A DNA stretch of 62,038 nt from a virus. Lineage: Duplodnaviria; Caudoviricetes. The stretch is from positions 1 through 62,038 of IMG/VR virus record IMGVR_UViG_3300020207_000023. One strand, 5' to 3'. The notes beneath the pieces were generated by a model. It saw only the letters and a program-made list of their open reading frames with translations, was not told the DNA's origin and ran no database searches. A program made the position numbers and the translations under genes. This document shows positions 19,455 through 35,340 of this stretch, one piece after another (position 1 is the stretch's first letter; each line of letters opens with the position of its first letter).

Positions 19455-19654
19455 AAAAAGGGGGGTGGGGGTACGCGAATAATTATCTCGGTACTAACGA
19501 TGTCGAAAGAACCGTGTATACGCCTACGCATATACACCACTCGTCTGTCAAAGGGGGGTTGGGGGTGTGGCATTTTTGCCACATAGCCTAAAACGCCGCT
19601 GGGGACCCATAGGCGGCGGTTGTGCGGCTGGCGGTAGGTAACACCGCCAGCCGC
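19455..19654. other. Non-coding hairpin and G-tract cluster, candidate genome terminus/packaging signal
   Basis: Two G-run blocks and four inverted repeats. Confidence 0.45.
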
Positions 19655-20337
19655 TAGGGGTTAGCCCATAAGCACTAGGTTGCCATAGGCTGTGCCGTAT
19701 GTGTTAGCGGTTTGTGCGCTGTAGTTAAAGCCGCCATTAAGCACAGCCGCCACAGCATTTTGGTTGGTTGCCGTGCCAGCCGCCGCATTAACATTGGCAA
19801 ACACACTAGCCGCCCAATGTTGGTGCGCCGCCTGTATTGCCGCCAATGGCACAGGCTTGCCAATGCTGGTTGGCAATTTTGTGCTAATGGCTGGCACGTT
19901 GTAAACGGTAACACCGTTGGCGGTTGTGGTTGGCACACCGTTAACGCACGCCCATAAAATAAGGCCGCGTGCGCTAATGTTGCCAGCCTTGTTTGGTTGC
20001 ATGGTGCGCCACATTGCGCCGCCGCCAAACAAAGTGCCGTTGGCAAGTGCGGCTGGCGTTAATTGCAAGCCCACATTGCCTAAACCGTTGGCCTTAATAA
20101 AGGCCGCCATTGCCGCAACGCTAACCGCGTTTTTAGCACCGTTTGCACCGTTAAAAGCCTGTGCCGCTTGTGTTGTTTTGTTAACCATTGTTAACCCCTT
20201 TTTAGTTAATGTGCGGTAGCACCATTGCCCCGCCCCTATTTTATGCCACAGGTTTAATATGTTTGTAAACCCCTTTTTTACAGTATTGCCAAAATAATTA
20301 TTAGCAACGCCGCCACACTACCAAAAACCAGCGCAAT
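19605..20337. other. 733-bp segment with no GA or TC dinucleotide
   Basis: Line-by-line reading; bounded by GA at 19604-19605 and TC at 20337-20338. Confidence 0.93.
19661..20188 (-). CDS. Asp/Glu-free protein, paralog of 20823-21272
   Basis: 175 aa with no D or E; AAGGGG RBS; motifs collinear with paralog. Confidence 0.85.
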   Translation of the reverse strand: MVNKTTQAAQAFNGANGAKNAVSVAAMAAFIKANGLGNVGLQLTPAALANGTLFGGGAMWRTMQPNKAGNISARGLILWACVNGVPTTTANGVTVYNVPAISTKLPTSIGKPVPLAAIQAAHQHWAASVFANVNAAAGTATNQNAVAAVLNGGFNYSAQTANTYGTAYGNLVLMG

Positions 20338-20340
20338 CAT
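20278..20340 (-). CDS. 20-aa hydrophobic micropeptide MIALVFGSVAALLIIILAIL
   Basis: Hand translation; ATGA overlap with upstream stop. Confidence 0.4.
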   Translation of the reverse strand: MIALVFGSVAALLIIILAIL

Positions 20341-20510
20341 TTGTGCCGCCATGCGCCAATATAGCCGACCATAAAACTGGACAGGCCAATAATAAATAGC
20401 AATGCGCTAATGTAATGGTGGAGGGTTGGGATATTAAATGTGTCCACACTGGTAAACATTAAAAAGATACCAGCCAACATTAAATAACCATAGGTAACGA
20501 TAATAAGCAT
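20337..20510 (-). CDS. 57-aa two-TM membrane protein (absent from ORF track)
   Basis: Hand translation MLIIVTYGYLMLAGIFLMF...IGAWRHK; GGGAG RBS. Confidence 0.6.
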   Translation of the reverse strand: MLIIVTYGYLMLAGIFLMFTSVDTFNIPTLHHYISALLFIIGLSSFMVGYIGAWRHK

Positions 20511-20776
20511 AGCAAACTCCCTTGTTTGTGGTTAGGGGTTTACATTGCCAGCCGCCGCCGCGTCTTGCCAGTGCAAAATTGTCACTGTGATAACATGGGA
20601 AGTCGCGTGATTTCACAAGAGTTCATGACGGTCTTTCGTATTCATATGAGTGTATACGAAAGAGAGATCGTCCAATATCCAAAGGGGACTTATCCATCTA
20701 TCTATCTTATATGCTCATGTATACCGATAAGAGATTCATCTTCGTCACTCTTTGTCAATCAATCAATCCATCAAAT

Positions 20777-20804
20777 AAAAAAAGGGCGACCCGAAGGTCG
20801 CCCT
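20777..20804 (-). terminator. Intrinsic terminator with UUCG loop
   Basis: AGGGCGACC-TTCG-GGTCGCCCT then U-tract on minus strand. Confidence 0.9.
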
Positions 20805-20822
20805 CGTTGGAGGTGGAGTGGC

Positions 20823-21272
20823 TTATGCCGGAATGACATAAAGCTCCACGAAGTTTTTGCCCCATGTCGCTTTCGCGCTGGCTGACTGTCCGCCGTTAAG
20901 AGCGTCAAGCAAAGCATGGAAGCGACGCGCCTTAATTGAGCGGTGAGCCATGTCGACATCCTGCAGGGTGACCGTTTCCTTACCGGAGTTGATCAACTGC
21001 CAGACTACCTTGCCACGCAGGACAGACTTAGGTGAACCGTCTGCGTCATACAAGGTCCGCTTGCTTTCAAAGGGGAATGGCTGTTCCGCCTTTGGGTCAA
21101 CGTCGGCTACAATGCGGACGCCTACATTATTAGGATTCCCGCCAGCGTGTTCCTGGACAAACTTAAAAATGTCCTCGGCCGTAACGCCTTCGCGCTTGCG
21201 CTCATCAGGCAGTTCATTGATGCCTGCAAAAGTGATTTCCTGAGCGACTTTTTTAGTGACTGCTTTAGCCAT
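20823..21272 (-). CDS. Hypothetical protein, normally encoded paralog of 19661-20188
   Basis: Start MAKAVTKK behind TAGAAAGGA; own terminator. Confidence 0.8.
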   Translation of the reverse strand: MAKAVTKKVAQEITFAGINELPDERKREGVTAEDIFKFVQEHAGGNPNNVGVRIVADVDPKAEQPFPFESKRTLYDADGSPKSVLRGKVVWQLINSGKETVTLQDVDMAHRSIKARRFHALLDALNGGQSASAKATWGKNFVELYVIPA

Positions 21273-21305
21273 GATAAGTTCCTTTCTACGAACTTGCGAG
21301 TCCAG

Positions 21306-21360
21306 CACCATTGCTGGCTACCCTTATAGAGTAGCAAATTGACCTTCCTATGTAAACCCC
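21306..21360 (-). promoter_or_regulatory. Putative promoter TTTACA-N17-TACTCT, similar to 20218-20273
   Basis: GGGGTTTACA...AGGG...GCAATGGTGCT shared by both paralog leaders. Confidence 0.55.
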
Positions 21361-21475
21361 TAAATTGTCATAATGATAAAGAAAGATGTCGGCGGGTAGA
21401 ACGGCAGAAGTCCATGGACCTCTCACGACTTCACATGATTTCAGCCGCGATGGACGACGAACGAGGAGCCACTGA

Positions 21476-21901
21476 TCACTCTTCGTCGCTCTTCATCAAT
21501 CTATCGAGGACCTCTGCCCATCCATCTTTGTCCCTCGGCCACTCCATCCTGTAATCGTATGTTGGATCATTATCAATCAATCTCTTTGCAAGGTAGCGTC
21601 CATCCATAAACAATAGGCTCTGGGACGAAGGATGATGAACCAAGTTCCAAACGCATCCACCAACATCAGTTCTTGAGGTCTGCCATGCTATTTGATGAGG
21701 ACGCCACTTAGGGAACTTCTTGTCGGACTTTGTCGTAAGAACCTTTAACTCTACCCAGAAGTCCTTGCCATTCGCGCAACCGTTGACGTCAGGGACGCCT
21801 GGACTCGCCCATGACTCCATCCTTACCCAATGGACGTTTAGGTGGCGTGTTCCGTCCCGTAGGGCTTTCCATAATTTAGACTCAGGTTTCGGTGTTGGCA
21901 C
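21476..21901 (-). CDS. PD-(D/E)XK nuclease (VRR-NUC/Holliday junction resolvase-like)
   Basis: PGVPDV...WVELK...PHQIAW. Confidence 0.75.
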   Translation of the reverse strand: MPTPKPESKLWKALRDGTRHLNVHWVRMESWASPGVPDVNGCANGKDFWVELKVLTTKSDKKFPKWRPHQIAWQTSRTDVGGCVWNLVHHPSSQSLLFMDGRYLAKRLIDNDPTYDYRMEWPRDKDGWAEVLDRLMKSDEE

Positions 21902-22442
21902 TTGGATGAACTTCTATTTCTTGGAAGTTCGCATCTATGGTGGGCTGGGTCGCTTCTACAAGTTGGGGGAACTCTTGCTGTATGCGCCTGATCTCTGCCA
22001 TAACCTCATTGCGATCCATCTGGTCTATCTTGCCCATGAGGATTTCCTTGCGGTCAATGTAAAGTCCTGCGGCTTGGCCTCGTGACTTTTCAGCAGTGAC
22101 AGCGGCGGCGTAGTTCCCATTCTGCAACGCTTGGTCTCTTATCTCTGCCAGCTTCTTTACATGGCTTTCAAAGGTGACTTCAAACTTGTGTTGCAGTTCA
22201 TTCTTGATATCGCGTATGCGTTCCAAAACTTGGGGGTAGTCCCGTCCGTTCAACATACGGCTTGCGATGGCGTGTGCATTGGACTCTGCGTAGCCAGCGC
22301 GAAGTGCGGCCTCAGTTTGCGTAACTTCCTCTGTTGCGTAAATCATTGCAAACTTTTCTTGCTTGGGTGTCAGCCCTACTTCCACCCGAGGGTTAGCAAC
22401 AACGTCCAGAGTATTCTTGTGTGTAACTTTCGCTTTCGGCAT
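21882..22442 (-). CDS. terS: Terminase small subunit
   Basis: LTPKQEKFA..TEAALRAGY HTH; RGQAAGLY. Confidence 0.85.
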   Translation of the reverse strand: MPKAKVTHKNTLDVVANPRVEVGLTPKQEKFAMIYATEEVTQTEAALRAGYAESNAHAIASRMLNGRDYPQVLERIRDIKNELQHKFEVTFESHVKKLAEIRDQALQNGNYAAAVTAEKSRGQAAGLYIDRKEILMGKIDQMDRNEVMAEIRRIQQEFPQLVEATQPTIDANFQEIEVHPSANTET

Positions 22443-22516
22443 AACAACAGTCTACTTTCCTATAATAGTAACCGCAATAGAAATCGACTCTTTTCTAAAA
22501 GTGTAATCTCCAAGCT

Positions 22517-22659
22517 CGCGTAGGGGCTCAAAGTTTTAATCATAATATCACATTACTCACATTAAAGCATTGTTTTTGTTAGATAGCCAGATATCGTATA
22601 TTGTAATATCCGATCGATCACATCACTCGTGATTTCATTTTACCTACTATATATAAAAG
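22517..22659 (-). promoter_or_regulatory. AT-rich element homologous (inverted) to 42407-42526
   Basis: 16-bp perfect inverted match plus equally spaced GATAT motifs. Confidence 0.6.
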
Positions 22660-22783
22660 TGTCCCAATATCACCAGAGAGCCATGATCGGTTGACCATGA
22701 CCCCCTGCCTTTTGTGAATGGTTATTGGTTTTAGAGTGGTGATAGAAGAAGCACGGCTAGTGCGATTAGAGCCATTTCCATGA

Positions 22784-23185
22784 TTACCACCAGCAAGTGT
22801 AGATGACTTTTTGCCCTTTTTCCAGAGCGAGTGTAGCGGCACTACAGAACTCTGTGTCTTGTTCTAGGTAGCGATTGGCTTGCTCCTCTTGAAATTCGTG
22901 GCCGTAGAAGAACCCACCGTGACATTCGTGTTCGGCGAAGTTGTTTTGCACGGCTTCCCATAGGGCTTTGATGTCGTCAAGGTCGAGCTCTAGGTTAGAG
23001 CAGTTGAGTTCTATGGCAGATTCGCCAGTTTTTTGCTCCCAGAGTTTTTCCATAAACTCTTGAAGGCGACTGTGTTTGCGCCAGTAGAAATCGCGGTCGC
23101 TGTTAATGCTGACCCAAGTGTTGCCTTTGTCATCTTGTTCAGATGTTTCAGTGGCGTTGATATAAGCGTTTTGATCAAGTCCCAT
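22784..23185 (-). CDS. Conserved phage early protein
   Basis: MGLDQ...YWRKH motif; GGAGG RBS. Confidence 0.7.
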   Translation of the reverse strand: MGLDQNAYINATETSEQDDKGNTWVSINSDRDFYWRKHSRLQEFMEKLWEQKTGESAIELNCSNLELDLDDIKALWEAVQNNFAEHECHGGFFYGHEFQEEQANRYLEQDTEFCSAATLALEKGQKVIYTCWW

Positions 23186-23196
23186 TGTTACCTCCG

Positions 23197-23343
23197 TTAG
23201 TTAGATGGGTTAATTTCAACAAGTTCGGCTTCGCCGTATTCCACGCACTCGTTACAAGCGGTGGCTTCGTCGCCGTGTAGGTCAACGAGCAGTTCGCACT
23301 CCTCGCAACCGTCAACAGGTTTTGCGTAATAAGTCTTGGACAT
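23197..23343 (-). CDS. 48-aa CxxC...CxxC protein
   Basis: Start MSKTYY behind AACGGAGGTAACA. Confidence 0.6.
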   Translation of the reverse strand: MSKTYYAKPVDGCEECELLVDLHGDEATACNECVEYGEAELVEINPSN

Positions 23344-23378
23344 TGTTACCTCCGTTGGTTGACTCCGTAGGCTACTGC

Positions 23379-23874
23379 CTACCCTTATATAATAAGGTGT
23401 GAGGGGGCAGGAAGTAGCCTTTTTTGTTCGTCTTGATAACATTGTTGTCAGTCCAAAATGAGCAGGATGACGAGTAGACCTATCACACCTAGAATGGAAA
23501 GTAGAATCATGACTGAAACATCTGAACAAGTTGCTCCGCTATTTCACCGATGTAACTAAGGATTGCCCTTTGGTGAGAGGGATGTTCAGCATGGATAATC
23601 TTGCGGCAAAAGTCAAAACCATCACTATCATATGCACCATGCACCATCAGGTAATGCGATATAGTGCCTACCTCTTGTGGTATTTGTATTTCACTGACGA
23701 CAATGTATTCGTCGTCCCACACATCAACTGATGCAACATTTTCGGTCAGCACAGGGTCGTGCATAAAACGGCCTTCCATGACGGATTGCACTTGTTGTAA
23801 GAAATCTGTAGCCATTGCTACCTCCGTTAGTTGATGTAGCCACCATTGGCTACCCTTATATAATAAGGTGTGAG
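23379..23874 (-). repeat. 25-bp direct repeat CTACCCTTATATAATAAGGTGTGAG (23379-23403, 23850-23874), probable early promoter
   Basis: Identical copies, each upstream of a gene. Confidence 0.75.
23507..23815 (-). CDS. Hypothetical early protein
   Basis: 102 aa with GGAGG RBS. Confidence 0.65.
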   Translation of the reverse strand: MATDFLQQVQSVMEGRFMHDPVLTENVASVDVWDDEYIVVSEIQIPQEVGTISHYLMVHGAYDSDGFDFCRKIIHAEHPSHQRAILSYIGEIAEQLVQMFQS

Positions 23875-23907
23875 AGTTTGGGAAGTTGGTCTTTTACTTC
23901 CCGACGA

Positions 23908-23938
23908 CAAAAAAGACGGCCACCGAAGTGACCGCCTT
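23908..23938 (-). terminator. Intrinsic terminator
   Basis: GGCGGTCAC-TTCG-GTGGCCGTC followed by TTTTTT. Confidence 0.75.
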
Positions 23939-24014
23939 CTAAGGGAGGAGGAAAAATGAGTAAGTAGTCTTCTTACACTGTTATCGTTACCCATCTTATC
24001 CAATCCTGCAAGCC

Positions 24015-24242
24015 TCAATTTGGGAGACCGAGATTAGTGGTTGTTTCCAATACCTTATCGGTGAGCCGCCGTGCTCGCTCAGCCGTGACATCATCAATCC
24101 ATGATTCAATGTCATCAGGCTCCATCCCAAGATGTGCTAATTTCGTTGCACAGAGGCGAGCATCAATCTCGCCTTCTATGAACTGGAATTGCACTTCTTC
24201 TTGCTGATCCATCAGCCATGCTTTCACTTTACCCATAATCAA
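24015..24242 (-). CDS. Hypothetical protein
   Basis: MGKVKAWLMD motif common in marine phages. Confidence 0.6.
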   Translation of the reverse strand: MIMGKVKAWLMDQQEEVQFQFIEGEIDARLCATKLAHLGMEPDDIESWIDDVTAERARRLTDKVLETTTNLGLPN

Positions 24243-24526
24243 TCTCCTAATCCGTAAAGTAAATTGTGTAGGTCTGCTGGTTTACTTTTATCCAGCTTCA
24301 ACCTGTAGCCATCCCAGTCGTAATAACCGTGGATGGTGGGCATTTTGCGAAACGACCCTTTGATCACCACCACTTCTTTGATTTGTGTTTCATCGTGATG
24401 CTCAAATAATTTTGCATCAAATGCTTTACGCAGATACCGAGCAATGTCGGAGATCCGTGGGTATATGGGCGTCAGCCATTGACCGTGACTGCCGTGCATA
24501 TAGATTTGTGCGCTGTATCGTGCCAT
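24239..24526 (-). CDS. Hypothetical protein
   Basis: Start MARYSAQ behind AGGAG. Confidence 0.6.
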   Translation of the reverse strand: MARYSAQIYMHGSHGQWLTPIYPRISDIARYLRKAFDAKLFEHHDETQIKEVVVIKGSFRKMPTIHGYYDWDGYRLKLDKSKPADLHNLLYGLGD

Positions 24527-24527
24527 A

Positions 24528-24905
24528 TCAATACTCCTGCGGTAGTAACATCGTGCCATCAATGAGGTAGAACTTCCACTCCCCATCAAACGCATCGGTG
24601 TAGTTAATGTCGCGTTTCCAGAAAACATTACCGTCACCATCATCGGCAGTAATAAGTGCCTTACCGTCTTCAACAATAAGTTTAACAACGACGAACTCTT
24701 CATTGAGATCATTGATCGATGTTGCAACAATATCTAAAAACCAGTAGGCTCCACCGCCGCAGTTATCAGCAAAGAACTGCACACCGTTCGTATATACCAT
24801 CTGCTTGGTAAGGGGAAGGTCATAACGGCGCAGATAATCGGTGCCGCTGAAATGAGCGAGTTGTGTTGCAAACTCGGCTGGTGAAAGTGTTGTTTCAGTA
24901 TTCAT
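24528..24905 (-). CDS. DUF6876-like protein
   Basis: FSGT..YTNGV.FFA...AYWFLD..YTD..MLLPQEY. Confidence 0.7.
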   Translation of the reverse strand: MNTETTLSPAEFATQLAHFSGTDYLRRYDLPLTKQMVYTNGVQFFADNCGGGAYWFLDIVATSINDLNEEFVVVKLIVEDGKALITADDGDGNVFWKRDINYTDAFDGEWKFYLIDGTMLLPQEY

Positions 24906-24914
24906 TGTTACCTC

Positions 24915-25112
24915 CTATTGGAAAAGCAAGTTGTAATCATGGGCGTAAATGAAATCCTCAAAACTGTCAGCAGTTTTGAGTTGCCATATTTTCCATTCAC
25001 ACCGGAATATTTCAGCGGCATCATCATACAAGGTGAATTCCCACCCTGCTTCATGTGCCATTACAGTGACTGTGTCGCCACTGTCTGTTAATGAATAACC
25101 ACCGATAACCAT
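24915..25112 (-). CDS. Hypothetical protein
   Basis: 65 aa with AGGAG RBS. Confidence 0.6.
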   Translation of the reverse strand: MVIGGYSLTDSGDTVTVMAHEAGWEFTLYDDAAEIFRCEWKIWQLKTADSFEDFIYAHDYNLLFQ

Positions 25113-25195
25113 GTTAGACTCCTTTCTGCGAGTTAAGGTTATAGTTTAATATTAAAGTGTGAGTGCTTGAAAGCAAACACTAAATGCTCAAAGAT

Positions 25196-25365
25196 AAAAA
25201 AGGGTGTTCCGTGGATTTGTAGGCAATGATTTAAGGCAGACCCTACTTATGCTCACCGCATCCTGCTTTACAAACATGAACGAGGGACAGGATGGTTAGA
25301 GATCCACGGCCTTGTGTTCCGCGTCGTGCAACGCTAGGACGAGGTCGAACCCTATGCACCCCGCC
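25196..25365 (-). ncRNA. Candidate structured RNA
   Basis: Nested complementary segments closing onto a U-tract. Confidence 0.4.
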
Positions 25366-25392
25366 CAGAAAGGTTAATTGTCTGCGCCCCTC

Positions 25393-25626
25393 TTACCTGA
25401 CTAACTCAAACACTTCGGCATGGTCTAATTCAGGCCATGACCGAATGGTGAGTTTATTACGATCAATAATCCATACCGCACCTTTTTCTTTATGGAAAGA
25501 GATTCGAGCATGGAGGTTATCACTAATGCCAAACGCTTCGCATTCTACGAGCGTTGGGCTCATCCAGTCATAACAAACTATCTGCTCCAGAAGGTCTGGA
25601 GTGCGTTCCAAATCTTGTTTATCCAT
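25393..25626 (-). CDS. Hypothetical protein
   Basis: 77 aa, GAGGAGG RBS. Confidence 0.55.
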   Translation of the reverse strand: MDKQDLERTPDLLEQIVCYDWMSPTLVECEAFGISDNLHARISFHKEKGAVWIIDRNKLTIRSWPELDHAEVFELVR

Positions 25627-25902
25627 TTATTCCTCCTCGGGGTCGCTGTCATAATATGCAGACCGATCAGGGACACCCCAGTCTTTACGGTCTTCTTCGT
25701 TTTCGTATCCATAACGATACTCCTCAATTTGTGCTGGTGTCATAGAGCTTTGTTCAATCCGCTCACTGCCGTAGGTTCTACCCACATAGTAATGAGGTTC
25801 AAAACGTCGGCCGTAATAAGCATCAGCACTGCCACGATCCTGTGGGCTACCATGACGCGGTAGCCCATCAGTTACAATATTAGGCTTGGAGAGACTGGTC
25901 AT
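25627..25902 (-). CDS. Conserved small phage protein
   Basis: HGSPQDRGSADAYYGR..PHYY motif. Confidence 0.7.
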   Translation of the reverse strand: MTSLSKPNIVTDGLPRHGSPQDRGSADAYYGRRFEPHYYVGRTYGSERIEQSSMTPAQIEEYRYGYENEEDRKDWGVPDRSAYYDSDPEEE

Positions 25903-26107
25903 TGGTCACCCCGCCGTTTTCCATTATGTGTTCTTCAACGAACAGCATGGCTTCCCGATGCACATCAGGATACCGTGCTTTTACATAAGTGTGGAACAAG
26001 GATACCTCAGCATACATACGAGCTAATGTATAAATGTCCCGCGCTACAGACTCAACATCAGCACCAACTTTGCTGAAGTGATCCATGGTTTGTGGTTCAT
26101 CAATCAT
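25880..26107 (-). CDS. Hypothetical protein
   Basis: TAGAAAGGAG leader. Confidence 0.6.
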   Translation of the reverse strand: MIDEPQTMDHFSKVGADVESVARDIYTLARMYAEVSLFHTYVKARYPDVHREAMLFVEEHIMENGGVTNDQSLQA

Positions 26108-26154
26108 GGCAAGCTCCTTTCTACAAACTAAATGCCATAGTTAATAATAGCGGT

Positions 26155-27463: not shown

Positions 27464-27472
27464 TTCTTTCTC

Positions 27473-28275: not shown

Positions 28276-28803
28276 TCACACACTAAGGTTGTGGTGGACT
28301 AGCACTTCGTTTACAGGTGCGAAGTCAGGTAAGTCTGAGAACTTTTTGTAAAGATAATTGATGCCAGTGTGCATTATCACTTTCATCTGCTCGCTTCCTG
28401 CAGAATGGCGATGGGAATAGAGCACGAGTTCAAGCATATCTGCCATCTTAAGTCTGCTTTTTTCTTCTGGCGTTAGGACAAAAGTCAATCCAAGGTCGTC
28501 CATCACTTTCTTTTCAGCCTTTTCAAAGGCTTGCAGGACTTCGGGGAACGACCATTTCGCCGTTGCTGGGATATCACCCAACACCATTTCAGGCACATCG
28601 TGATACAACGCCGCCATGATTAACTGTTTGCTACTATCAGGCCATAACTGGTCAATCAATATACTGACTGCGTATGAATGTGCTCCCACTGTTTGCCTCT
28701 CTGCTTGCATTGGAACAGTATGGTAGCGCAGTAGGAACTGTGCATCCCACGCTGTCATCAATGTTTTAATGTTGGTTGTTGTCTTGCATTTTCGTCCCGC
28801 CAT
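28276..28803 (-). CDS. HD-domain deoxynucleotide phosphohydrolase (YfbR-like)
   Basis: RYH..TVGAHS..ALYHDVPE..GDIP..ADMLE. Confidence 0.85.
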   Translation of the reverse strand: MAGRKCKTTTNIKTLMTAWDAQFLLRYHTVPMQAERQTVGAHSYAVSILIDQLWPDSSKQLIMAALYHDVPEMVLGDIPATAKWSFPEVLQAFEKAEKKVMDDLGLTFVLTPEEKSRLKMADMLELVLYSHRHSAGSEQMKVIMHTGINYLYKKFSDLPDFAPVNEVLVHHNLSV

Positions 28804-30685
28804 CTTTTATTCCTCTTGCCCATGGTTTGTCGCTAAATGTCTTTTTAGCTTCACCCCAGCTCGGACCGAACTCAGCATCCACAACGCTGGGGATTTGCAT
28901 ATTGACACAGGTTTCCATTATTTCTTGTATTTTTGCACCAGTATCAGGGTCAGCAACGGATATGTCAAGTTCATCATGAACCTGAATCATAGGCGTAATA
29001 CCCTCTTCATACAGGGCAACCATCGCCGCTTTAGTTTGGTCAGCGGCACTGCCTTGTATCAATCTATTTAAGGCTTTGTATGTGAATGCTCTTTTGATTG
29101 CCGGACCATGCTCGGCGTAAGCATCTTGATAAGACATGGGTTTGTATGTCCCATACGCATTTGGCTCCCATTTATCAAAACGACACTTGCGTCCTAACAG
29201 GGTGCGTATCAATCCTTTGTTAGATGCACGGTGGATTACATAATCAGCTAACTGTTGCACGAATGGCACTTTTCCATGATACTCGGCAAATAATTCTTTA
29301 GCGTCATCAAACTCCAAACCCAACTGCTCAGCCAGTTTATTCTTACCCATCCCGTAGAATAGGCCGAGGTTAATGTCTTTTGCTTGCTTGCGCGGCACTC
29401 CCACAATATTTGCCGCCATCTGGTGGAAATCGGTATTAGCATCAATGTTATACTGGTCGGCAAACTCTTGTGCGCCTTGCAGTTTCAGTAGGCTGGCATA
29501 ATGAACAACGAGGCGTGGTTCTTGGCTACTGTAATCAAAAGCCCCCCACAATTCACCTTCATCGGGTAGAAACAAGCCACGAATCATCGGACCAATCTCA
29601 GCGTTCCGTGCTGGCACTTGTTGTAGATTAGGATTGCTGTAACTGAAGCGGCCTGTAACTGTGCCGCCATCATCACTTCTCAAACTGTGTGCTTCAGCAT
29701 GGATGCGACCGTTATGTTGGTGCTTCAGTATAGTGTCTATAAAGGTAGTTCGGGCTTTATTCAGCTCTCGAGCTCGAACCACAGCCTTTGGCAAGTCATG
29801 GGCATGGTTGGCTAGAAAGTTTTTAGTGAAGCTAGGCTGTCCTGATTTGGGCGTTTTAGGGTATTTCAGCCCATTAGCGTCGAAGGCTTTAGCAATACTC
29901 GCCGCCGCCCATATATCAATATCTTGCCCACCCGCATCAGCTAGAACCTTTTGTTCTTCGCGTTCCAGATACTCTTTTAACTGCTCTGCTTTTTCAAGGT
30001 CTACCCGCACACCCTTCTTACGCATGGCAAAGACGACCTTTAACACTTTAAGTTCTAAATCAAAAATATCAGCAATATCTTCTTTTAGTATAAGCCCTTT
30101 GAAATGTTGCCACAGTTTCAGCGTAAGTGCGGCATCCTGTTCTGCGTATTGCCCGACAAAGTGGGCTGGCAGTTTCCACATTTCACTCTTAGCATTTACA
30201 CCAAATGAGTTAGCGGCTTCATACAGGTCTTTTTCGCTTTTGCGTTCGTTCAGGTAATCCCTACCAAGTGCGTTCAATGCGTAACTAAACCTGTTTTCAT
30301 CAAGCAGGGCGGCTACGATCATTGTATCAATCACACGGCCTTTAACCTCAATCCCTTCTGCCCACAGCCAGCCGAGGTCATACATAGCATTGTGCATAAT
30401 GTAATCGCGCTCAACAGAAACAATGTTGGAGAGCCATCGCAGAGTTTGCTTTGCATCAAAGTTACCGCCGTTTTCATGACGGATAGGGAAATACCAAGCC
30501 TTGCCCTCTACCGCTACAGCAATCCCAATGACATAGCCATCTTTACGAGGCCAGCCACTACCCATCGTAGTTAGGTTAGGGTCGCGTGTTTCAAGGTCAA
30601 TCGCTATTTCTCTAGCGTCCGACAGGTCGGGGTAGCCATCAGGCATAACCCACTCAGTCGGAGGTGTGAACAAGGGGAACTGCAT
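28766..30685 (-). CDS. polA: Family A DNA polymerase with 3'-5' exonuclease
   Basis: IDLET, HNAMYD, TGRFS..PNLQQVP, DYSSQEPR, KDINLGLFYG, QVHDEL. Confidence 0.95.
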   Translation of the reverse strand: MQFPLFTPPTEWVMPDGYPDLSDAREIAIDLETRDPNLTTMGSGWPRKDGYVIGIAVAVEGKAWYFPIRHENGGNFDAKQTLRWLSNIVSVERDYIMHNAMYDLGWLWAEGIEVKGRVIDTMIVAALLDENRFSYALNALGRDYLNERKSEKDLYEAANSFGVNAKSEMWKLPAHFVGQYAEQDAALTLKLWQHFKGLILKEDIADIFDLELKVLKVVFAMRKKGVRVDLEKAEQLKEYLEREEQKVLADAGGQDIDIWAAASIAKAFDANGLKYPKTPKSGQPSFTKNFLANHAHDLPKAVVRARELNKARTTFIDTILKHQHNGRIHAEAHSLRSDDGGTVTGRFSYSNPNLQQVPARNAEIGPMIRGLFLPDEGELWGAFDYSSQEPRLVVHYASLLKLQGAQEFADQYNIDANTDFHQMAANIVGVPRKQAKDINLGLFYGMGKNKLAEQLGLEFDDAKELFAEYHGKVPFVQQLADYVIHRASNKGLIRTLLGRKCRFDKWEPNAYGTYKPMSYQDAYAEHGPAIKRAFTYKALNRLIQGSAADQTKAAMVALYEEGITPMIQVHDELDISVADPDTGAKIQEIMETCVNMQIPSVVDAEFGPSWGEAKKTFSDKPWARGIKDGGTKMQDNNQH

Positions 30686-30839
30686 CCGCTTTTACTTTCA
30701 TAGGTTGGTTACATGAACAATGAGGCCATTTGTTTTTGAGGTTGCGAAAGGTGAGGTGTTTAACCTCACCCTTGCACTCACACTCAGCAACTACAGGCTC
30801 ATCCAACTTCGAGTTCGAGTTGTCGGTCATCTTTGTCAC
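30654..30839 (-). CDS. Small Cys-containing protein
   Basis: CEC...CSC, overlaps neighbours. Confidence 0.45.
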   Translation of the reverse strand: MTKMTDNSNSKLDEPVVAECECKGEVKHLTFRNLKNKWPHCSCNQPMKVKADAVPLVHTSD

Positions 30840-31245
30840 CGAATCGCATCCTTAATTCAGCCTCAACAAGAAACAAATAACGCCGTAGGTCGCGTATATC
30901 ATCTAAAACGCCTTCCTCGCGTCTGTCTTCCTCTGCTGTTTGGAACACATCATAATTCCAGTCAGCCACTTGCTTTTCAAGCCTGTCCCATTTGCGAGCC
31001 AGCATCATAAAAGCACCAACGCCTCCGCGCTGTTTCCAACTGTTGCCATAGGATTGCTCAGATATATGCAACCCTTCAACATCCTCCATAGCCAGACCCA
31101 GCACCTTATTGATAATGGCACTGTAATCATCGGCATCTATTTCACCGTTCCTAACCAATTTAAGATACTCCTCTTCCTCTAACTCACGCATACGCCGTGT
31201 CATATAAGCCTCGTGACTTTCGTGTTTTACAAAGTTTCCATCCAT
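30799..31245 (-). CDS. Nucleotide-modification-associated (Nmad1/MazG-like) protein
   Basis: SYGNSW..ARKWDRL..LDDIRDLRRY. Confidence 0.65.
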   Translation of the reverse strand: MDGNFVKHESHEAYMTRRMRELEEEEYLKLVRNGEIDADDYSAIINKVLGLAMEDVEGLHISEQSYGNSWKQRGGVGAFMMLARKWDRLEKQVADWNYDVFQTAEEDRREEGVLDDIRDLRRYLFLVEAELRMRFGDKDDRQLELEVG

Positions 31246-32243
31246 TTGTCTTTTCTCCGTTCTAGCCATTCGTAACACGCCAAATGCCAATCATCTGGCT
31301 TTATGTCTTTAGAATGTTCCATGGCTTGGAAAATTTCTTTTGCTTTCCATGCCACCCACATTCTGTGCATAGGCTGTGCCACTTCGCTAAAAACAGAGTT
31401 AACATATGCTCTAGGTTTCTCGGGGTCTTCCATAAACCACTCAAGCTCTTCATCAAAGGTAAGTATGTCGTCAACCAATGGAGAAGGTTTAATCATGCGT
31501 GTAGCATATGAATCATAGTCAGGGGTCATTCCATCAAGCCCCTCCAACACTTCCACATAGGCGTGGAGGTTGTTGCTGAACTGTGTATAGATCCCCACCT
31601 GTGCGCCAATCCGTGCCGCAATGTATTCCTGCAGAATGGACATATGGACAGCGTTAGCTCCCAGCGCACCCCAGATCATATCATTACTGCGGTTGCATAC
31701 CGTCATGTCCAGCTTATTATCGCGAACGCTGAAATATATATGCGTATTACAGGGGTGATCTTTGCATTCATTATCCTTGCGTAAATCACCTTCAGGATCC
31801 CACATAGCTAAAACAGTTCGTCTATCGTTTTCATAGGTCATAAGTCTATGAACAGCTATGTCTAATTGGTCTTTATAGAAATAGTTACGCCATCTATAAC
31901 CATATGCACCTTGGAGGGTCTTACCATTATCACTATAAGTACCCATCCGTTTATTATAACGCTGGATCCACTCAAGGTCTTCACGACCCGCTAACATCCA
32001 GAGGCTTTCCATAAAATGGAATACAGGGTTAGCGTCGCGTTGCGGATAGAACAATACCCGCTCGCAGGGGTTATTGTAAGTAATCGCACAAGGCTCACGG
32101 AACTCAAGTGCTTTACCGTTTCGGGTGTCTACTTCAACACCGCTAGTTTCAAGTGCTTGCTTCACCAGCCATAACGCATCACTGACATTAACAGCGGTGA
32201 ATGTGTGCATACCCCTCATTGGGGCTTTGCCAAATAGTGCCAT
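31227..32243 (-). CDS. Thymidylate synthase homolog, probable dUMP hydroxymethyltransferase
   Basis: Catalytic PC (HPCN), RSND, dUMP-type Asn (GANAVH), NLHAY; clustered with 5-hmdU kinase. Confidence 0.8.
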   Translation of the reverse strand: MALFGKAPMRGMHTFTAVNVSDALWLVKQALETSGVEVDTRNGKALEFREPCAITYNNPCERVLFYPQRDANPVFHFMESLWMLAGREDLEWIQRYNKRMGTYSDNGKTLQGAYGYRWRNYFYKDQLDIAVHRLMTYENDRRTVLAMWDPEGDLRKDNECKDHPCNTHIYFSVRDNKLDMTVCNRSNDMIWGALGANAVHMSILQEYIAARIGAQVGIYTQFSNNLHAYVEVLEGLDGMTPDYDSYATRMIKPSPLVDDILTFDEELEWFMEDPEKPRAYVNSVFSEVAQPMHRMWVAWKAKEIFQAMEHSKDIKPDDWHLACYEWLERRKDKWMETL

Positions 32244-32344
32244 AATGAACCACCTTTCTATGGGGCTATAAAGCCGCTCGAGCGGCTGAGGTTAGTTTGC
32301 CCTACCCAACTACCAAAAGCAACCTTCTGGCGGCTGTATGGGGC

Positions 32345-33346
32345 TTAAATAAAGTCAAAATGCTTCTTGACACGCTTAGTGTATGTCCCTCCATTTAATG
32401 CTTCTTTAATTGCAGTTTCCGTTTCCTCTGTAGGCTCGGGTAACGTCTTGCGTCCCATGCGGTCAGGTAACAATCCATTACGAAGAGTGGTGTTGTCACA
32501 ACCGTTACAAGGACCGAAATCGCGTTGCCCATGATACAGTTTTGTTCTCGCCGCATGGAAAGCCTCCCCCTGCCAAATATCATCAATATGTGTGTCCATT
32601 ATATTGCCGCACTTATACCATCCTACCCAATCATTACAGCAGACTGCGACATTGCCATCCCATCGTATTGACATTTCGCGGAAAGGTTTAGCACAGCGTT
32701 TGCCATCTTGGTCATGGTTCAATGGAAAAGCATTTCCAGCATGGTTGCTAACTTGGGCATGAGTTCCACTTGTAGCCAATGTGAGATCCATGCCAACAAC
32801 GATATCATGCTCTGTAACTTTTCTTCTACGGTGGGGGTTTGCGGCGCGGTCGGCGGGGTATTCAAAAACGGGATGTGGACCATTGTAACGCTCCTTGATT
32901 TTATCTACGATTTTAATACGGTCGTAGTTATCAAGGAATAGAACATTTAGCCCTGCATCCATAAGTTTGTTGACCGTTTCCTCTGTGTCTTTCAACAACC
33001 CACCACCATTGCTAGTCATCATAAGCGGTGTTCTGGGTAACTCTTTACGGAACAGACCCACCATTTCAATAAAGAAAGGGTGCATAGTAGGCTCGCCGTG
33101 CATAGCAAACTCAATGCGTGGATTCCACCCTGCCCTTTTAATTTCCTGACAAATTCGGGTAGCCGTTTGAATATGCAGATTTTTGTAAGGGGCAGATGCT
33201 TTACCATGCAGATTACTCGGACCATCAGCCTCGTTTTCACGGATAGACTGTATGCCGCAAAATGAGCAAGCAAGGTTGCACCCTTCCACAAACTCTACCT
33301 GAATAGAGTTTGGTGGGTCTTGATAAAAGTTAGATTGCTCCACCAT
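32345..33346 (-). CDS. Radical SAM enzyme with SPASM/twitch domain
   Basis: CNLACSFC, HGEP, C..PF...DGNVAVCC...GNI...CNGC. Confidence 0.9.
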   Translation of the reverse strand: MVEQSNFYQDPPNSIQVEFVEGCNLACSFCGIQSIRENEADGPSNLHGKASAPYKNLHIQTATRICQEIKRAGWNPRIEFAMHGEPTMHPFFIEMVGLFRKELPRTPLMMTSNGGGLLKDTEETVNKLMDAGLNVLFLDNYDRIKIVDKIKERYNGPHPVFEYPADRAANPHRRRKVTEHDIVVGMDLTLATSGTHAQVSNHAGNAFPLNHDQDGKRCAKPFREMSIRWDGNVAVCCNDWVGWYKCGNIMDTHIDDIWQGEAFHAARTKLYHGQRDFGPCNGCDNTTLRNGLLPDRMGRKTLPEPTEETETAIKEALNGGTYTKRVKKHFDFI

Positions 33347-34115
33347 CTTTAGCGGCCTTTCTCCATTGAACACGGACATCCCACCGCGTTTTCATACCTT
33401 CCCAACCTGTTTTAGTTTCCTTTTGTAATGCTTTCACATACAACGGAAAGGCTTGTTCCAAAGCGCGGCTGGCGCGTTCTTGCAGTTCAGCATTGCGATA
33501 TGTGCTACAGCCTCCAGCCGCACCAGAAGCACCACGCTGATCCCATGTCCAATCTACAATAACCGCATTGCCGTGTCCCTTTTGGAATAGGCTGAGGGTT
33601 ACATAGTAGTCCTCCATTAACTCCATAGCATCATAGCGTATGCCTAATTGTTGGAGGATATGGGGGCGTATGGCATGGACAGCGTTTTGCCGCATCCCAT
33701 ACTTTACCCGATCTGGGTAATGTTTGTCATTCATCTGGCGTGGGCTGAGGCCAACATGGGTGAAGTTATTTAACAGCCACTCCATGCGCTCCCACAGTTC
33801 GTGCATCTCACCCTGCTCAGTTTTTCTTAGGTTAGGTGCGTCATCATGTGCGCGGCGACCAAATATAAGATCGTCATCCAAAATAATAATTTTATCATAC
33901 TCCTGCTCCACTGCGTGATCTACAATAAATTGCCGGACATTGTTTATGCCCTTGATATCACCACGGTTCAGGCAGTAACGACCATTGTTAATATGTGCTT
34001 GCACTTCTTCTTGTGGGCAAACCAGAACCGCACTTTCTCTTGCTTCCGGACCAATACTTTCCCAAGTAGTTTGCTTGTTGATCCTACCCCTTGTAGGAAT
34101 AAAAATAGGTATCAT
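33330..34115 (-). CDS. GT-A glycosyltransferase, TAGT/JGT/GREB1-like DNA-base type
   Basis: IFIPTRGR, ILDDDL, MEDY, GGCS motifs. Confidence 0.75.
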   Translation of the reverse strand: MIPIFIPTRGRINKQTTWESIGPEARESAVLVCPQEEVQAHINNGRYCLNRGDIKGINNVRQFIVDHAVEQEYDKIIILDDDLIFGRRAHDDAPNLRKTEQGEMHELWERMEWLLNNFTHVGLSPRQMNDKHYPDRVKYGMRQNAVHAIRPHILQQLGIRYDAMELMEDYYVTLSLFQKGHGNAVIVDWTWDQRGASGAAGGCSTYRNAELQERASRALEQAFPLYVKALQKETKTGWEGMKTRWDVRVQWRKAAKDGGAI

Positions 34116-34432
34116 AACTCATCCTCATCAAACCTTATTGAACCAGAGGCCATTGCTTCTTCTAACTCTTCATCGGTTAGGTTGTCAATGTCTGCTTCAG
34201 TATATTTAAAAACCTTTTGTGGCTTCGTCCTCGGCCGTAACCGTTTCTTTTTGTTTGGCTTTGGTTGCTCGGGTTTCGGTTTCGGCACGGTGGGCTTGGA
34301 GGTCTCTAATACTTCCAATGTCCGATAGATGTGCTTGCATTTCTGACATACTCGCTTCCTCCGGACTGATTTGTCTGCTGTAAGTCTGCTGTCTGCGACG
34401 GTTGATTTGCCACTGCATTTTGGACACAACAT
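34112..34432 (-). CDS. NrdR-like Zn-ribbon protein without ATP cone
   Basis: CPKC..STVADSR..VRRKRVCQKC...RTLE. Confidence 0.7.
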   Translation of the reverse strand: MLCPKCSGKSTVADSRLTADKSVRRKRVCQKCKHIYRTLEVLETSKPTVPKPKPEQPKPNKKKRLRPRTKPQKVFKYTEADIDNLTDEELEEAMASGSIRFDEDEL

Positions 34433-34434
34433 TT

Positions 34435-35340
34435 CTACACCACCCCACCATTAGGAGCCTCCAACCACATTCCAACATTAGCCTGATACTTACTGCGTGG
34501 CTTGCCTTGTCCAAGGCGCACACGCTCATACTTATCCCACTCGCACAGGCTATGCTCAATAGTTCGCATATCTACTGCATCAAGGGGAACATGAGATTGA
34601 ATGTAGTTTGGTGCTTGAGCCAGTAACTCTTGCATTTCGGTATTGGCTTGGGTCTGGTTCATAGACTTAGTCAACACCCTATCGTGGATACGGTTCAGTC
34701 CTCGCTTTGCTCCCGGACCTGCGTTTGCCCAACTAAAACGGTCTTGTGCCTTGTCCAATACAGGTGTGTAGTTGAGGTCGGTAACCACTTCGTATGACAT
34801 AAAGCCTCCCCCTCCCCATCCCCGATAGGAAGCCATCGCTTTGTGGGTCGCCTCCAACGATTGCGTTTCCTCAGCGACCCCCGATAAATGCACCCTGTCT
34901 TTCCAAATAGGTTTGAGGAAGTGGTCAACAACGACCTCCGACTTACGAGCTTTGAGACCTTGATTAGTGATTATATAAGCTCCAGTGAATGTCCGCAAAC
35001 CAGAGGACAACCTAGCCTCAATAAGTTCTTTGGTATGGTCGGGATTCCATCCTTTATCTTCGTCAACCCACCCATGCTCTTCGGCAAACTCGCTTGTGCC
35101 AATCATGCGGAACAAACAACAATTAAAAACGATTTCACTGTGCGGACGGTTAGCATTTGGGTTAGTCCAGTTTTGGCGCATCCAAACAGTAACACGGTCA
35201 TTTTCACGGAAGGGGTTGGTGAACTTGTAATCCTGCAAAATGTGGTCGTCAGTCCAAGGGGGATTGACCCCCTTGGCTCGCTTTTGGTAAATAGCGTGAC
35301 GCTCATTTATCCAGTAAAAGAACCTTTCTATGTTCTCCAT
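34435..35340 (-). CDS. 5-hmdU DNA kinase (aGPT-Pplase1 family)
   Basis: ERHAI..PPWTDDHILQDYKFTN..RENDR, FTGAY, GPGAKRGL, EHSLCEWDKY. Confidence 0.85.
   Translation of the reverse strand: MENIERFFYWINERHAIYQKRAKGVNPPWTDDHILQDYKFTNPFRENDRVTVWMRQNWTNPNANRPHSEIVFNCCLFRMIGTSEFAEEHGWVDEDKGWNPDHTKELIEARLSSGLRTFTGAYIITNQGLKARKSEVVVDHFLKPIWKDRVHLSGVAEETQSLEATHKAMASYRGWGGGGFMSYEVVTDLNYTPVLDKAQDRFSWANAGPGAKRGLNRIHDRVLTKSMNQTQANTEMQELLAQAPNYIQSHVPLDAVDMRTIEHSLCEWDKYERVRLGQGKPRSKYQANVGMWLEAPNGGVV

What the first reader, a model, noticed from the sequence alone, without database searches (positions are those of the whole stretch)
19605..35340. Proposed system: context-specific T hypermodification plus an unmodifiable starter cassette
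Established: 5-hmdU DNA kinases of phages such as ViI and M6 act post-replicatively on a sequence-context subset of 5-hmdU, and bulky base J influences transcription in kinetoplastids. Seen: this genome has such a pathway (31227-35340) and one complete gene lacking TC on both strands near the presumed terminus. Inference: T in TC is bulkily modified in virion DNA, hindering host RNA polymerase; the TC-free unit is readable on entry and its product unlocks or protects the rest. I do not know of a described system like this.
Basis: inference. Interest (0 to 1): 0.9.

Follow-up and report, generated by a model that had tools for sequence, protein, structure and literature searches.

The report
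Dinucleotide-free duplicate gene in marine phage
A marine phage that chemically modifies its thymines keeps two copies of one small gene, and one copy, with its promoter and terminator, has been stripped of every TC and GA, probably so it cannot be modified and stays readable.

Summary
Window 19605-20336 (733 bp) has no TC and no GA; the next longest gap is 65 bp. It covers one transcription unit: promoter, a 175-aa gene with no D or E ("P2"), and a terminator-like hairpin.

The gene match has zero TC/GA in 60 of 80 metagenomic relatives, down to 35% protein identity. In 16 of 17 fetched kinase-bearing genomes with TerL, the longest TC/GA-free gap lies just upstream of TerL.

New findings:
- P2 is a purged duplicate of an ordinary neighbour, P1 (20823-21311; hhalign 96%). 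16 of 19 genomes showed both copies.
- Avoidance includes promoter DNA: 19 sites seen, 293 expected.
- It is strand-asymmetric. Template-strand TC stays avoided where non-template TC has returned.

Published work suggests 5-hmdU kinases prefer TG/TC, and kinase treatment cut E. coli RNA polymerase output about ten-fold.

Best reading (about 0.55): P2 is a unit the kinase cannot mark, so it stays readable on modified DNA. Against: relaxed P2 copies coexist with the kinase, and other promoters do not avoid TC/GA.

The parts
19605..20336 (.). TC/GA-free island (733 bp), co-extensive with one transcription unit
   Evidence: gap scan; 0 TC and 0 GA against 51.4 and 40.2 expected
19661..20188 (-). 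P2: 175-aa protein with no D or E (net basic), orphan family, the TC/GA-purged paralog
   Evidence: homologs; purifying selection, median dN/dS 0.24 over 24 pairs; no Pfam, PHROG, PADLOC, NCBIfam or PDB match; model pTM 0.75 with no fold hit
20264..20274 (-). P2 promoter motif AGGGGTTTACA (-35 TTTACA at 20264-20269)
   Evidence: exact copies only at 20264, 20534 and 21351; a -35-like box 57-108 nt before the ATG in 53 of 55 unique lineages printed
20238..20245 (-). -10-like CATAAAAT, 18 nt after the -35 box (read from sequence; start site not mapped)
   Evidence: sequence; one search shows it conserved in close relatives
20195..20200 (-). GA-free ribosome-binding site AAGGGG
   Evidence: the 99%-identical relative L003 has AAGAGG here and TTGACC near the promoter
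19624..19654 (-). GC-rich 12-bp hairpin after the P2 stop codon (terminator-like, no T run), inside the island
   Evidence: Read sequence; the avoidance extends 38-96 nt past the stop in the relatives I compared by hand coordinates
20337..20510 (-). 57-aa two-helix membrane protein gene; contains TC/GA here but lies inside the island (about 970-990 bp) in some relatives
   Evidence: L012; L024, L025, L034, L036, L038; G009
20823..21311 (-). P1: ordinary paralog of P2 (ORF 162 aa, probable start at 21272; 21 D/E, 29 sense TC, 28 sense GA)
   Evidence: hhalign against superfamily profile A3: probability 96.3%, E 1.5e-9, 116 columns; hmmsearch E 6.3e-12; start inferred from alignment A5
21351..21361 (-). 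P1 promoter motif AGGGGTTTACA; the P1 and P2 leaders also share CAATGGTGCT 35-37 nt downstream
20782..20805 (-). P1 intrinsic-terminator-like hairpin followed by a T run
34435..35340 (-). 5-hmdU DNA kinase (HMUDK)
   Evidence: PF18723, E 1.7e-51, 175.7 bits
33330..34115 (-). TAGT-family glycosyltransferase
   Evidence: PF20691, E 9.5e-14
32345..33379 (-). Radical SAM / SPASM enzyme
31227..32243 (-). Thymidylate-synthase-like enzyme (presumed dUMP hydroxymethylase; substrate not testable here)
   Evidence: PF00303, E 1.4e-19; below every NCBIfam thymidylate-synthase cut-off
34112..34432 (-). NrdR-like Zn-ribbon protein inside the cluster
28276..28803 (-). HD-domain 5'-deoxynucleotidase-like protein
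17764..19236 (-). Terminase large subunit, immediately downstream of P2 and the 76-aa gene 19218-19448
21476..22442 (-). HNH endonuclease (21476-21901) and terminase small subunit (21882-22442), upstream of P1

Best explanation
P2 is a duplicate of the whole P1 transcription unit, kept free of the dinucleotide step TC/GA on both strands. The phage's post-replicative thymidine hypermodification starts with the 5-hmdU DNA kinase, which I infer acts on T in 5'-TC-3'. With no TC on either strand, no base in the P2 unit can be modified. Its promoter and template therefore stay as plain 5-hmU DNA, and host sigma70-type RNA polymerase reads it equally well whatever the modification state of the rest of the genome. 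That would apply on fully modified virion DNA after injection and on matured DNA late in infection. P1 is the unconstrained, acid-containing version, read from DNA that is not yet modified. SHOWN: the island, its conservation, the paralogy, promoter inclusion, strand asymmetry, and restriction of the family to the kinase-bearing clade. FROM PAPERS: a TG/TC preference inferred in other phages, and repression of E. coli RNAP by kinase treatment of a 5hmU template. INFERRED: that TC is this clade's context, that modification hinders the host polymerase in vivo, and when P2 matters. The function of the P protein is unknown.
For: Island and its significance. Conservation: zero TC/GA in the gene match in 60 of 80 metagenome loci (35-100% identity); 10 loci have 1-3 sites and 10 have 9-29. 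In IMG/VR, 10 of 17 loci have zero. The longest TC/GA-free gap lies next to TerL in 16 of 17 fetched genomes that carry TerL. Graded cost: in G023, G025, G042, G028, G022 and G046 the TC/GA count equals the D+E count (1-3), so only acidic codons remain. Transcription-unit logic: the roughly 55-nt promoter segment has 19 TC/GA against 293 expected in 59 unique sequences, while the compositional twin CT/AG has 261; 40 of 59 have none. Strand asymmetry: L071 and L076 have sense TC 28 (expected 20.5-21.3) but sense GA 1 (expected 15-16; 0 of 2000 simulations as low). L042, L039 and L041 have GA 1 against 11-13 expected. G017 has TC 23 (expected 18.6) but GA 11 against 19.5 expected (P=0.002), 8 of them in D/E codons. 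Paralogy. Clade link: all 18 kinase-selected genomes plus 2 of 2 P-family-selected complete genomes have the kinase. No P family and no island in HTVC027P or 023Pt_psg01 (first 50 kb each). Islands persist in genomes lacking TAGT and rSAM but keeping the kinase and the ThyA-like gene (G032 829 bp, G035 719 bp, G047 713 bp), which points to the kinase step. Literature: PMC6449724 (TG/TC); PMC8989533 (about 23% conversion); PMC6457204 (5hmU template 350%, then about 10% of that after 5-HMUDK and ATP); PMC11550810 abstract (template and non-template strand effects differ for T7 RNAP). RNA-library contigs cover P2 in 3 of 4 runs laid, one spanning 19547-20370 with no mismatch.
Against: The modification context has not been measured in this clade, and no DNA chemistry is available. 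Other intergenic regions are no more depleted than coding DNA (O/E 0.84 against 0.83). P1's own upstream region has 25 sites in 164 bp. So all other genes, early ones included, must be transcribed from TC-containing and presumably modified DNA. P2 copies that have largely or fully regained TC/GA coexist with an intact kinase in G017, G050 and G051. G001 has the complete cluster and a kinase almost identical to strict G016, yet 10 sense TC. Relaxation is recurrent and tracks neither kinase phylogeny nor any gene's presence. M6 and PhiJL001 carry the kinase but have no dinucleotide-free island in the 50 kb examined of each. The kinase link is phylogenetically confounded, since it may reflect one clade. 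The published preference is TG plus TC, while TG/CA is not avoided here. The transcription start is unmapped, and the RNA evidence is from contigs only, so DNA carry-over is possible.
Confidence: 0.55

Rival explanations
1. Target avoidance against a DNA-acting enzyme other than the phage's own pathway. Examples are a host nuclease or nickase, a Type IV (modification-dependent) restriction enzyme, or a TC-specific DNA cytosine deaminase. Under this reading P2 is a damage-proof gene, for instance an inhibitor of that enzyme, which stays intact and expressible while the rest of the genome is attacked.
For: Avoidance of one duplex step on both strands points to DNA. Relaxation is recurrent, scattered, and independent of kinase phylogeny and gene content, as expected if the selecting agent sits in the host. 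P2 evolves fast for this genome: dN/dS 0.24 against 0.085 for TerL, and 35-43% identity where TerL is about 82%. The per-site cost is graded. That TC-specific bacterial deaminases exist is recalled, not tested.
Against: A single cut or mutation elsewhere would still kill the phage, so protecting one gene helps only under special assumptions. The most persistent constraint is on the template strand, whereas transcription-coupled deamination would expose the non-template strand most. The boundaries match the RNA polymerase footprint and the terminator. P1 and P2 match no PADLOC model. No host is known, and the family is absent from 185,579 prokaryote species genomes.
Confidence: 0.15
2. An RNA-level cause: P2 mRNA avoids GA, and in most lineages also UC, to escape an endoribonuclease of low specificity, such as a host abortive-infection RNase or a phage host-shutoff RNase. 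This would be a natural counterpart of ACA-less mRNAs that resist MazF.
For: Sense-strand GA is the most persistent avoidance, which an mRNA-level target explains directly. The avoidance runs through the 3' untranslated hairpin. An RNA-library contig spans the whole island, so all of it may be transcribed.
Against: The two avoided dinucleotides are reverse complements. That is automatic for a DNA step but about a 1 in 15 coincidence for two RNA motifs. The promoter segment upstream of the likely start site is as depleted as the gene (19 against 293 expected), and in L062-L064 and L099 the boundary sits 18-23 nt upstream of the -35 box next to TC/GA-dense DNA. No RNase is recognisable in the window.
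Confidence: 0.08
3. A structural DNA function between terS and terL, such as a packaging-initiation region or an origin, needs about 0.7-1 kb of unmodified DNA. The resident gene merely adapted to that.
For: Constant position immediately upstream of TerL. The contigs of G009 and G046 end inside P2.
Against: The limits follow the promoter, CDS and terminator, not a fixed distance from terL. The strand asymmetry follows the direction of the gene. The G009 ends are an assembly overlap (370 bp at 96.5%). In G050 the flagged terminal repeat is about 19 kb from P2. P2 is a duplicate of a gene unit, leader included.
Confidence: 0.04

Closest known systems
Post-replicative thymidine hypermodification via 5-hmdU DNA kinase (phages M6, ViI, phiW-14, SP10)
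   Same: The window has the kinase (PF18723) and a thymidylate-synthase-like gene next to PolA. The same pairing is reported for HTVC023P-type pelagiphage clades V, VIII and IX (PMC9599517, passages). A dinucleotide-level preference (TG/TC) was inferred from restriction resistance (PMC6449724).
   Different: The partner enzymes here are a TAGT glycosyltransferase and a SPASM radical SAM enzyme; the product is unknown. No paper I searched or read in part describes a modification-site-free gene. M6 and PhiJL001 have none in the 50 kb examined. Only TC, not TG, is avoided here.
In vitro switching of bacterial transcription by 5-HMUDK phosphorylation of 5hmU templates (Vanikova et al. 2019, PMC6457204)
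   Same: It shows the assumed effect: kinase action on template 5hmU lowers E. coli RNAP output about ten-fold, and bulkier groups abolish it.
   Different: It is an artificial, fully substituted 311-bp template with one promoter. There is no sequence context, no phage biology and no escape element.
Recognition-site avoidance in phage genomes, and first-expressed anti-restriction genes such as T7 gene 0.3 or T5 pre-early genes (recalled, not looked up)
   Same: Selection removes short sequence words from DNA so that an enzyme cannot act, and one gene must work before or despite the rest.
   Different: Here the avoided word is a dinucleotide. It is removed completely from one transcription unit only, probably against the phage's own enzyme. 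P2 is not at a demonstrated genome end, and it has an ordinary paralog.
ACA-less mRNAs that resist MazF (recalled, not looked up)
   Same: A coding sequence purged of a short motif so that it alone survives a global activity.
   Different: That case is RNA-level and single-stranded. Here both strands and the untranscribed promoter are purged.
Base J (glucosyl-hmU) and transcription in kinetoplastids
   Same: A bulky hmU derivative that affects RNA polymerase progress, with a glycosyltransferase acting on hydroxymethyl pyrimidine.
   Different: That system is eukaryotic, is placed at specific loci by a dedicated oxygenase, and has no motif-free gene logic.

Membership tests
5-hmdU-kinase-dependent thymidine hypermodification system | 5-hmdU DNA kinase (HMUDK) present | tested here: met
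   PF18723, 175.7 bits (cut-off 25), residues 4-277 of 301
5-hmdU-kinase-dependent thymidine hypermodification system | dUMP hydroxymethylase supplying 5-hmdUTP | tested here: inconclusive
   Thymidylate-synthase fold (PF00303, E 1.4e-19) but below all NCBIfam TS cut-offs. Whether it is a hydroxymethylase or a methylase cannot be told from sequence here.
5-hmdU-kinase-dependent thymidine hypermodification system | Enzyme that replaces the phosphate (aGPT-Pplase-type transferase) plus tailoring enzymes | tested here: inconclusive
   Only TAGT, radical SAM/SPASM and a Zn-ribbon were recognised. The 201-aa gene 35345-35950 next to the kinase has no match.
5-hmdU-kinase-dependent thymidine hypermodification system | Modified thymidine actually present in virion DNA, in a defined context | not testable with these tools
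   No DNA chemistry or raw signal data.
Modification-blind ('unmodifiable') transcription unit, the class proposed here | Complete absence of the presumed target word on both strands across promoter, CDS and terminator | tested here: met
Modification-blind ('unmodifiable') transcription unit, the class proposed here | The avoided word equals the modification context | not testable with these tools
   Indirect only: TG/TC inferred for M6, ViI and phiW-14 (PMC6449724)
Modification-blind ('unmodifiable') transcription unit, the class proposed here | Co-occurrence with the modification genes | tested here: inconclusive
   The P family is always found with the kinase and is absent from kinase-less outgroups. 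But this may reflect a single clade, and relaxed P2 copies coexist with the kinase.
First-entry / pre-early starter gene (T7 0.3-like, T5 first-step-transfer-like) | Located at the genome end that enters first | tested here: not met
   P2 lies between terS and terL. In G050 the flagged direct terminal repeat is about 19 kb from P2. Physical ends of the window phage are unknown.
RNase-resistant motif-less mRNA (MazF/ACA-less type) | Avoidance confined to the transcript | tested here: not met
   The promoter segment upstream of the likely start site is equally purged. Caveat: the start site is not mapped.

The most novel reading that the evidence does not exclude
Thymidine hypermodification in these abundant marine podoviruses acts as a genome-wide brake on host RNA polymerase as well as a shield against restriction. 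The phage carries a bootstrap: a kinase-blind, TC-free copy (P2) of a gene whose ordinary copy (P1) is silenced with everything else. P2 is then the one unit fully readable on mature or incoming DNA, and its protein licenses or protects expression of the modified genome. A gene's dinucleotide content would then set its sensitivity to a viral epigenetic mark, and the kinase's target could be read from sequence alone.
Probability: 0.3. Interest if true: 0.92.

Novelty: categorically new. Interest (0 to 1): 0.86.

Why it matters
If this is right, it is the first natural case of a gene built to be invisible to its own genome's DNA modification.

- **A function for hypermodification beyond anti-restriction.** It would control transcription, which so far has only been shown in vitro.
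- **A sequence-only read-out of a kinase's target.** That target has been stated as unknown or only inferred (PMC5889632, PMC6449724).
- **A test needing no cultured phage.** Kinase treatment plus in vitro transcription of the P1 and P2 units would decide it.
- **Ecological weight.** The relatives named and the group described in PMC9599517 are HTVC023P-type pelagiphages, reported there as widespread and abundant.
- **A striking fact whatever the mechanism.** A protein family has been forced to evolve without aspartate or glutamate by a constraint on its DNA.

Tried and rejected
Tried without result:
- megablast of 20 kb and tblastn of P2 against named phages found nothing.
- Pfam, PHROGs, PADLOC, NCBIfam and PDB sequence profiles gave no match for P1 or P2.
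- Foldseek of the P2 model against PDB and BFVD, and of the P1 model against PDB, gave nothing at E <= 0.001.
- The ESM Atlas gave no usable hit for P1.
- The prokaryote genome scan found no relative of P2.
- tblastn of P2 on the window found no paralog. That was a false negative, later resolved by profile comparison.

Considered and rejected or down-weighted:
- Chance or composition.
- An open frame created only by the lack of TGA: rejected by dN/dS 0.24 and 39 invariant columns in 26 sequences.
- Tandem duplication in G009: it is a 370-bp end overlap.
- A general feature of kinase-bearing phages: M6 and PhiJL001 have none in the 50 kb examined of each.
- General promoter avoidance.
- A single accessory gene that tracks the state. 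The best candidate, window 44517-44966, is absent from all 3 relaxed genomes but also from 4 of 14 strict or near-strict ones.
- Kinase lineage as a predictor of the state.

Cautions on my own calls:
- The 80-locus table mixes P1 and P2 hits. I use it only as the lead that revealed the paralog.
- While working I once wrote 61 of 80; recounting the output gives 60 of 80.
- Regions with no RNA-contig cover are not evidence of silence, and depth there cannot rank genes.
- No complex-prediction job was run, because I make no binding claim.
- Supplementary files were not opened. Flodman et al.'s supplementary restriction tables could bear on TC against TG.

Full report
**1. What the window is.** The window is a whole 62,038-bp virus record, with nearly all genes on the minus strand. 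Its terminase, portal and capsid genes are closest to Pelagibacter phages HTVC027P and HTVC023P, phage 023Pt_psg01 and DSL-LC04 (58-64% TerL identity). A 2022 study (PMC9599517; passages read) describes HTVC023P-type podoviral pelagiphages. It reports that its clades V, VIII and IX all carry a thymidylate synthase plus "aG/PT-PPlase1" pair for DNA hypermodification. The word "dinucleotide" does not occur in that paper.

- thymidylate-synthase-like enzyme, 31227-32243
- radical SAM/SPASM enzyme, 32345-33379
- TAGT glycosyltransferase, 33330-34115
- Zn-ribbon protein, 34112-34432
- 5-hmdU DNA kinase, 34435-35340 (PF18723, 175.7 bits)

**2. The observation.** Positions 19605-20336 contain no TC and no GA. 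The next longest such gap is 65 bp, and no other dinucleotide class gives anything comparable. Base composition predicts 51 TC and 40 GA in the stretch. With the protein held fixed and codons drawn from the genome's own usage, about 17 TC and 15 GA are expected in the CDS; none are seen. No other gene comes near this: the portal gene, next most depleted, still has 70 TC and 154 GA.

The island starts right after the stop codon of the upstream 57-aa gene. It contains:
- a sigma70-like promoter (AGGGGTTTACA, then 18 nt, then CATAAAAT)
- a GA-free ribosome-binding site (AAGGGG)
- the 175-aa ORF 19661-20188(-), which has no Asp or Glu
- a GC-rich hairpin after the stop codon

**3. It is conserved, so it is selected.**
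- The protein has homologs only in marine viral and metagenome data. None was found in 185,579 prokaryote species genomes.
- In 80 metagenome loci spanning 35-100% identity, the gene match has zero TC/GA in 60, 1-3 sites in 10, and 9-29 sites in 10. About 50-65 are expected from flanking density.
- Gaps are typically 600-990 bp and always pass the CDS on both sides. In some lineages they also cover the upstream small membrane-protein gene.
- The family is almost entirely free of Asp and Glu.
- It is under purifying selection: median dN/dS is 0.24 for P2, 0.13 for P1 and 0.085 for TerL.

I then fetched 18 near-complete kinase-bearing IMG/VR genomes. In 16 of the 17 that carry TerL, the longest TC/GA-free gap lies just upstream of TerL, at 167-991 bp. 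This holds even where tblastn finds no homolog. These islands all encode distant members of one superfamily.

**4. New finding: a paralog pair.** The ordinary gene 20823-21311 (P1; 21 D/E, 29 sense TC, 28 sense GA) is a distant paralog of the island gene (P2).
- hhalign against the superfamily profile gives 96.3% probability, E 1.5e-9. Pairwise BLASTP misses it.
- An HMM scan of 19 genomes found both an ordinary copy and a TerL-proximal depleted copy in 16. Of the rest, G009 lists only P2, and G016 lists only P1 in that call but its P2 was seen. G013, which has no TerL hit, lists none.
- The two units share the promoter motif and a leader element, CAATGGTGCT, 35-37 nt downstream. So the whole unit was duplicated and one copy was purged.
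- Residues that are acidic and conserved in P1 are replaced in P2.
- Neither protein matches any family or fold.
- Kinase-less outgroups, and M6 and PhiJL001, have no family member in the 50 kb examined of each.

**5. What kind of constraint it is.** Four results bear on this.

- **The cost is graded per site.** In six partly relaxed genomes with 1-3 sites (G023, G025, G042, G028, G022, G046), the TC/GA count equals the D+E count, so only acidic codons remain. In distant lineages the only sites near the start lie in functional elements: GGAG in the ribosome-binding site and TATTCT in the -10 box. The 99%-identical relative L003 has GA sites that give AAGAGG at the ribosome-binding site and TTGACC near the promoter.
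- **It covers promoter DNA.** I took 59 unique sequences, from 20 nt upstream of the -35 box through the -10. They hold 19 TC/GA where 293 are expected. The compositional twin CT/AG has 261. 40 of the 59 have no TC/GA at all. In L062-L064 and L099 the boundary lies 18-23 nt upstream of the -35 box, next to TC/GA-dense DNA.
- **It is strand-asymmetric.** In lineages that looked relaxed, sense-strand TC has returned to the synonymous expectation: 28 against about 21 in L071 and L076, and 23 against 18.6 in G017. Sense-strand GA, which is template-strand TC, stays far below it: 1 against 15-16, 1 against 11-13, and 11 against 19.5 with 8 of those in D/E codons.
- **The two avoided words are reverse complements.** That is automatic for a DNA step.

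Together these point to a DNA-level constraint felt by RNA polymerase at the promoter and on the template, and not to an mRNA motif or a packaging site.

**6. Link to the modification.**
- Flodman et al. 2019 (PMC6449724; abstract and passages) found that restriction-resistant sites in M6, ViI and phiW-14 share TG or TC. They proposed that the 5hmdU kinase prefers these contexts.
- Lee et al. 2018 state that the motifs are not yet known (PMC5889632; passage).
- M6 kinase phosphorylates about 23% of 5-hmdU in fully substituted DNA (PMC8989533, section 15). T-in-TC is 18.9% of all T in this window (arithmetic).
- Vanikova et al. [quoted passage not shown] - For T7 RNA polymerase, template and non-template strand modifications act differently (PMC11550810; abstract only).
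- Islands persist in genomes that lack TAGT and radical SAM but keep the kinase and the ThyA-like gene. That fits the kinase step as the common factor.

My reading follows from this. P2 carries no site for the kinase. It therefore remains plain 5hmU DNA and remains readable whatever the state of the genome.

**7. Evidence against, and limits.**
- The context is unmeasured in this clade. TG/CA is not avoided.
- Other intergenic regions are not depleted (O/E 0.84 against 0.83 for coding), and P1's upstream region is dense in TC/GA. So modification cannot be an absolute block, or something else lets the other genes be read.
- P2 copies in G017, G050 and G051 have regained TC fully and GA partly or fully, yet these genomes keep the kinase.
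- G001 has the full cluster and a kinase nearly identical to that of strict G016, but 10 sense TC.
- Relaxation is recurrent and tracks neither kinase lineage nor any gene's presence. This leaves room for a host-side agent.
- The kinase association may reflect a single clade. Only 2 complete genomes were chosen independently of the kinase, and both have it.
- M6 and PhiJL001 have no island in the 50 kb examined of each.
- "Near the terminus" is unsupported. In G050, flagged with direct terminal repeats, the first 60 nt recur 127 nt before the contig's end. That repeat is about 19 kb from P2, beside the replication module.
- RNA-library contigs cover P2 in runs X1, X5 and X9 and P1 in X1, X5 and X7. 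One X1 contig spans 19547-20370 with no mismatch. Contigs cannot show starts, strand or level, and DNA carry-over is possible.

**8. Verdict.** The best-supported mechanism (about 0.55) is a kinase-blind, TC-free duplicate transcription unit that stays readable by RNA polymerase on hypermodified DNA.

Rivals:
- avoidance of a host DNA-acting enzyme (0.15)
- an RNase-resistant mRNA (0.08)
- a structural DNA role (0.04)
- the remainder is unknown

I found no description of such an element. The searches were made, plus the papers read in part and listed above.

Noticed in passing
window 19441-19470 and 19549-19575: Two similar G-rich tracts (A-run, then G6, T, G5) lie between P2's hairpin and the 76-aa gene 19218-19448. 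A GTATAC-containing hairpin lies between them (19514-19537). Their function is unknown.
   Followed up: no
window 20511-20822: The spacer between P1's terminator and the small membrane gene is unusually rich in TC/GA (47 in 312 bp). It holds TGAT/GATA-type short repeats, palindromes, and an inverted exact copy of the promoter motif at 20534-20544(+).
   Followed up: no
L003 / L023, about -114, -66, -10 and +277 relative to the P2 ATG: A relative with 99% identical P2 has four TC/GA sites in the unit. Two of them give AAGAGG at the ribosome-binding site and TTGACC near the promoter.
   Followed up: partly
G009 and G046 contig ends: Two of the fetched near-complete assemblies break inside P2. 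G009's ends overlap by 370 bp at 96.5%, and G046 has P2 at both ends. This suggests population-level hypervariability of P2 that breaks assemblies.
   Followed up: partly
L001 (HTVC027P) 16498-16680; L002 (023Pt_psg01) 15308-15521: The kinase-less outgroups have their longest AT-free (154 bp) and TA-free (215 bp) stretches between terS and terL, the same genomic position as P2 here.
   Followed up: no
window 44963-50545: Two large orphan proteins (1047 and 812 aa, no Pfam or PHROG match) occur only in the five genomes that also have TAGT and radical SAM. The other genomes carry unrelated 1062-aa and 891-aa proteins instead.
   Followed up: no
window 44517-44966: This 149-aa gene is absent from all 3 genomes with relaxed P2 and present in 10 of 14 strict or near-strict ones. 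The correlation is imperfect.
   Followed up: partly
window 42346-42607: This is a strand-switch region between the only large plus-strand gene (helicase 42608-44044) and the minus-strand replication module. By analogy with G050's flagged terminal repeat it may lie near the physical genome end.
   Followed up: no
window 31227-32243: The thymidylate-synthase-like protein scores below every NCBIfam thymidylate-synthase cut-off (best 93 bits against 174.55), consistent with a divergent, possibly hydroxymethylating enzyme.
   Followed up: no
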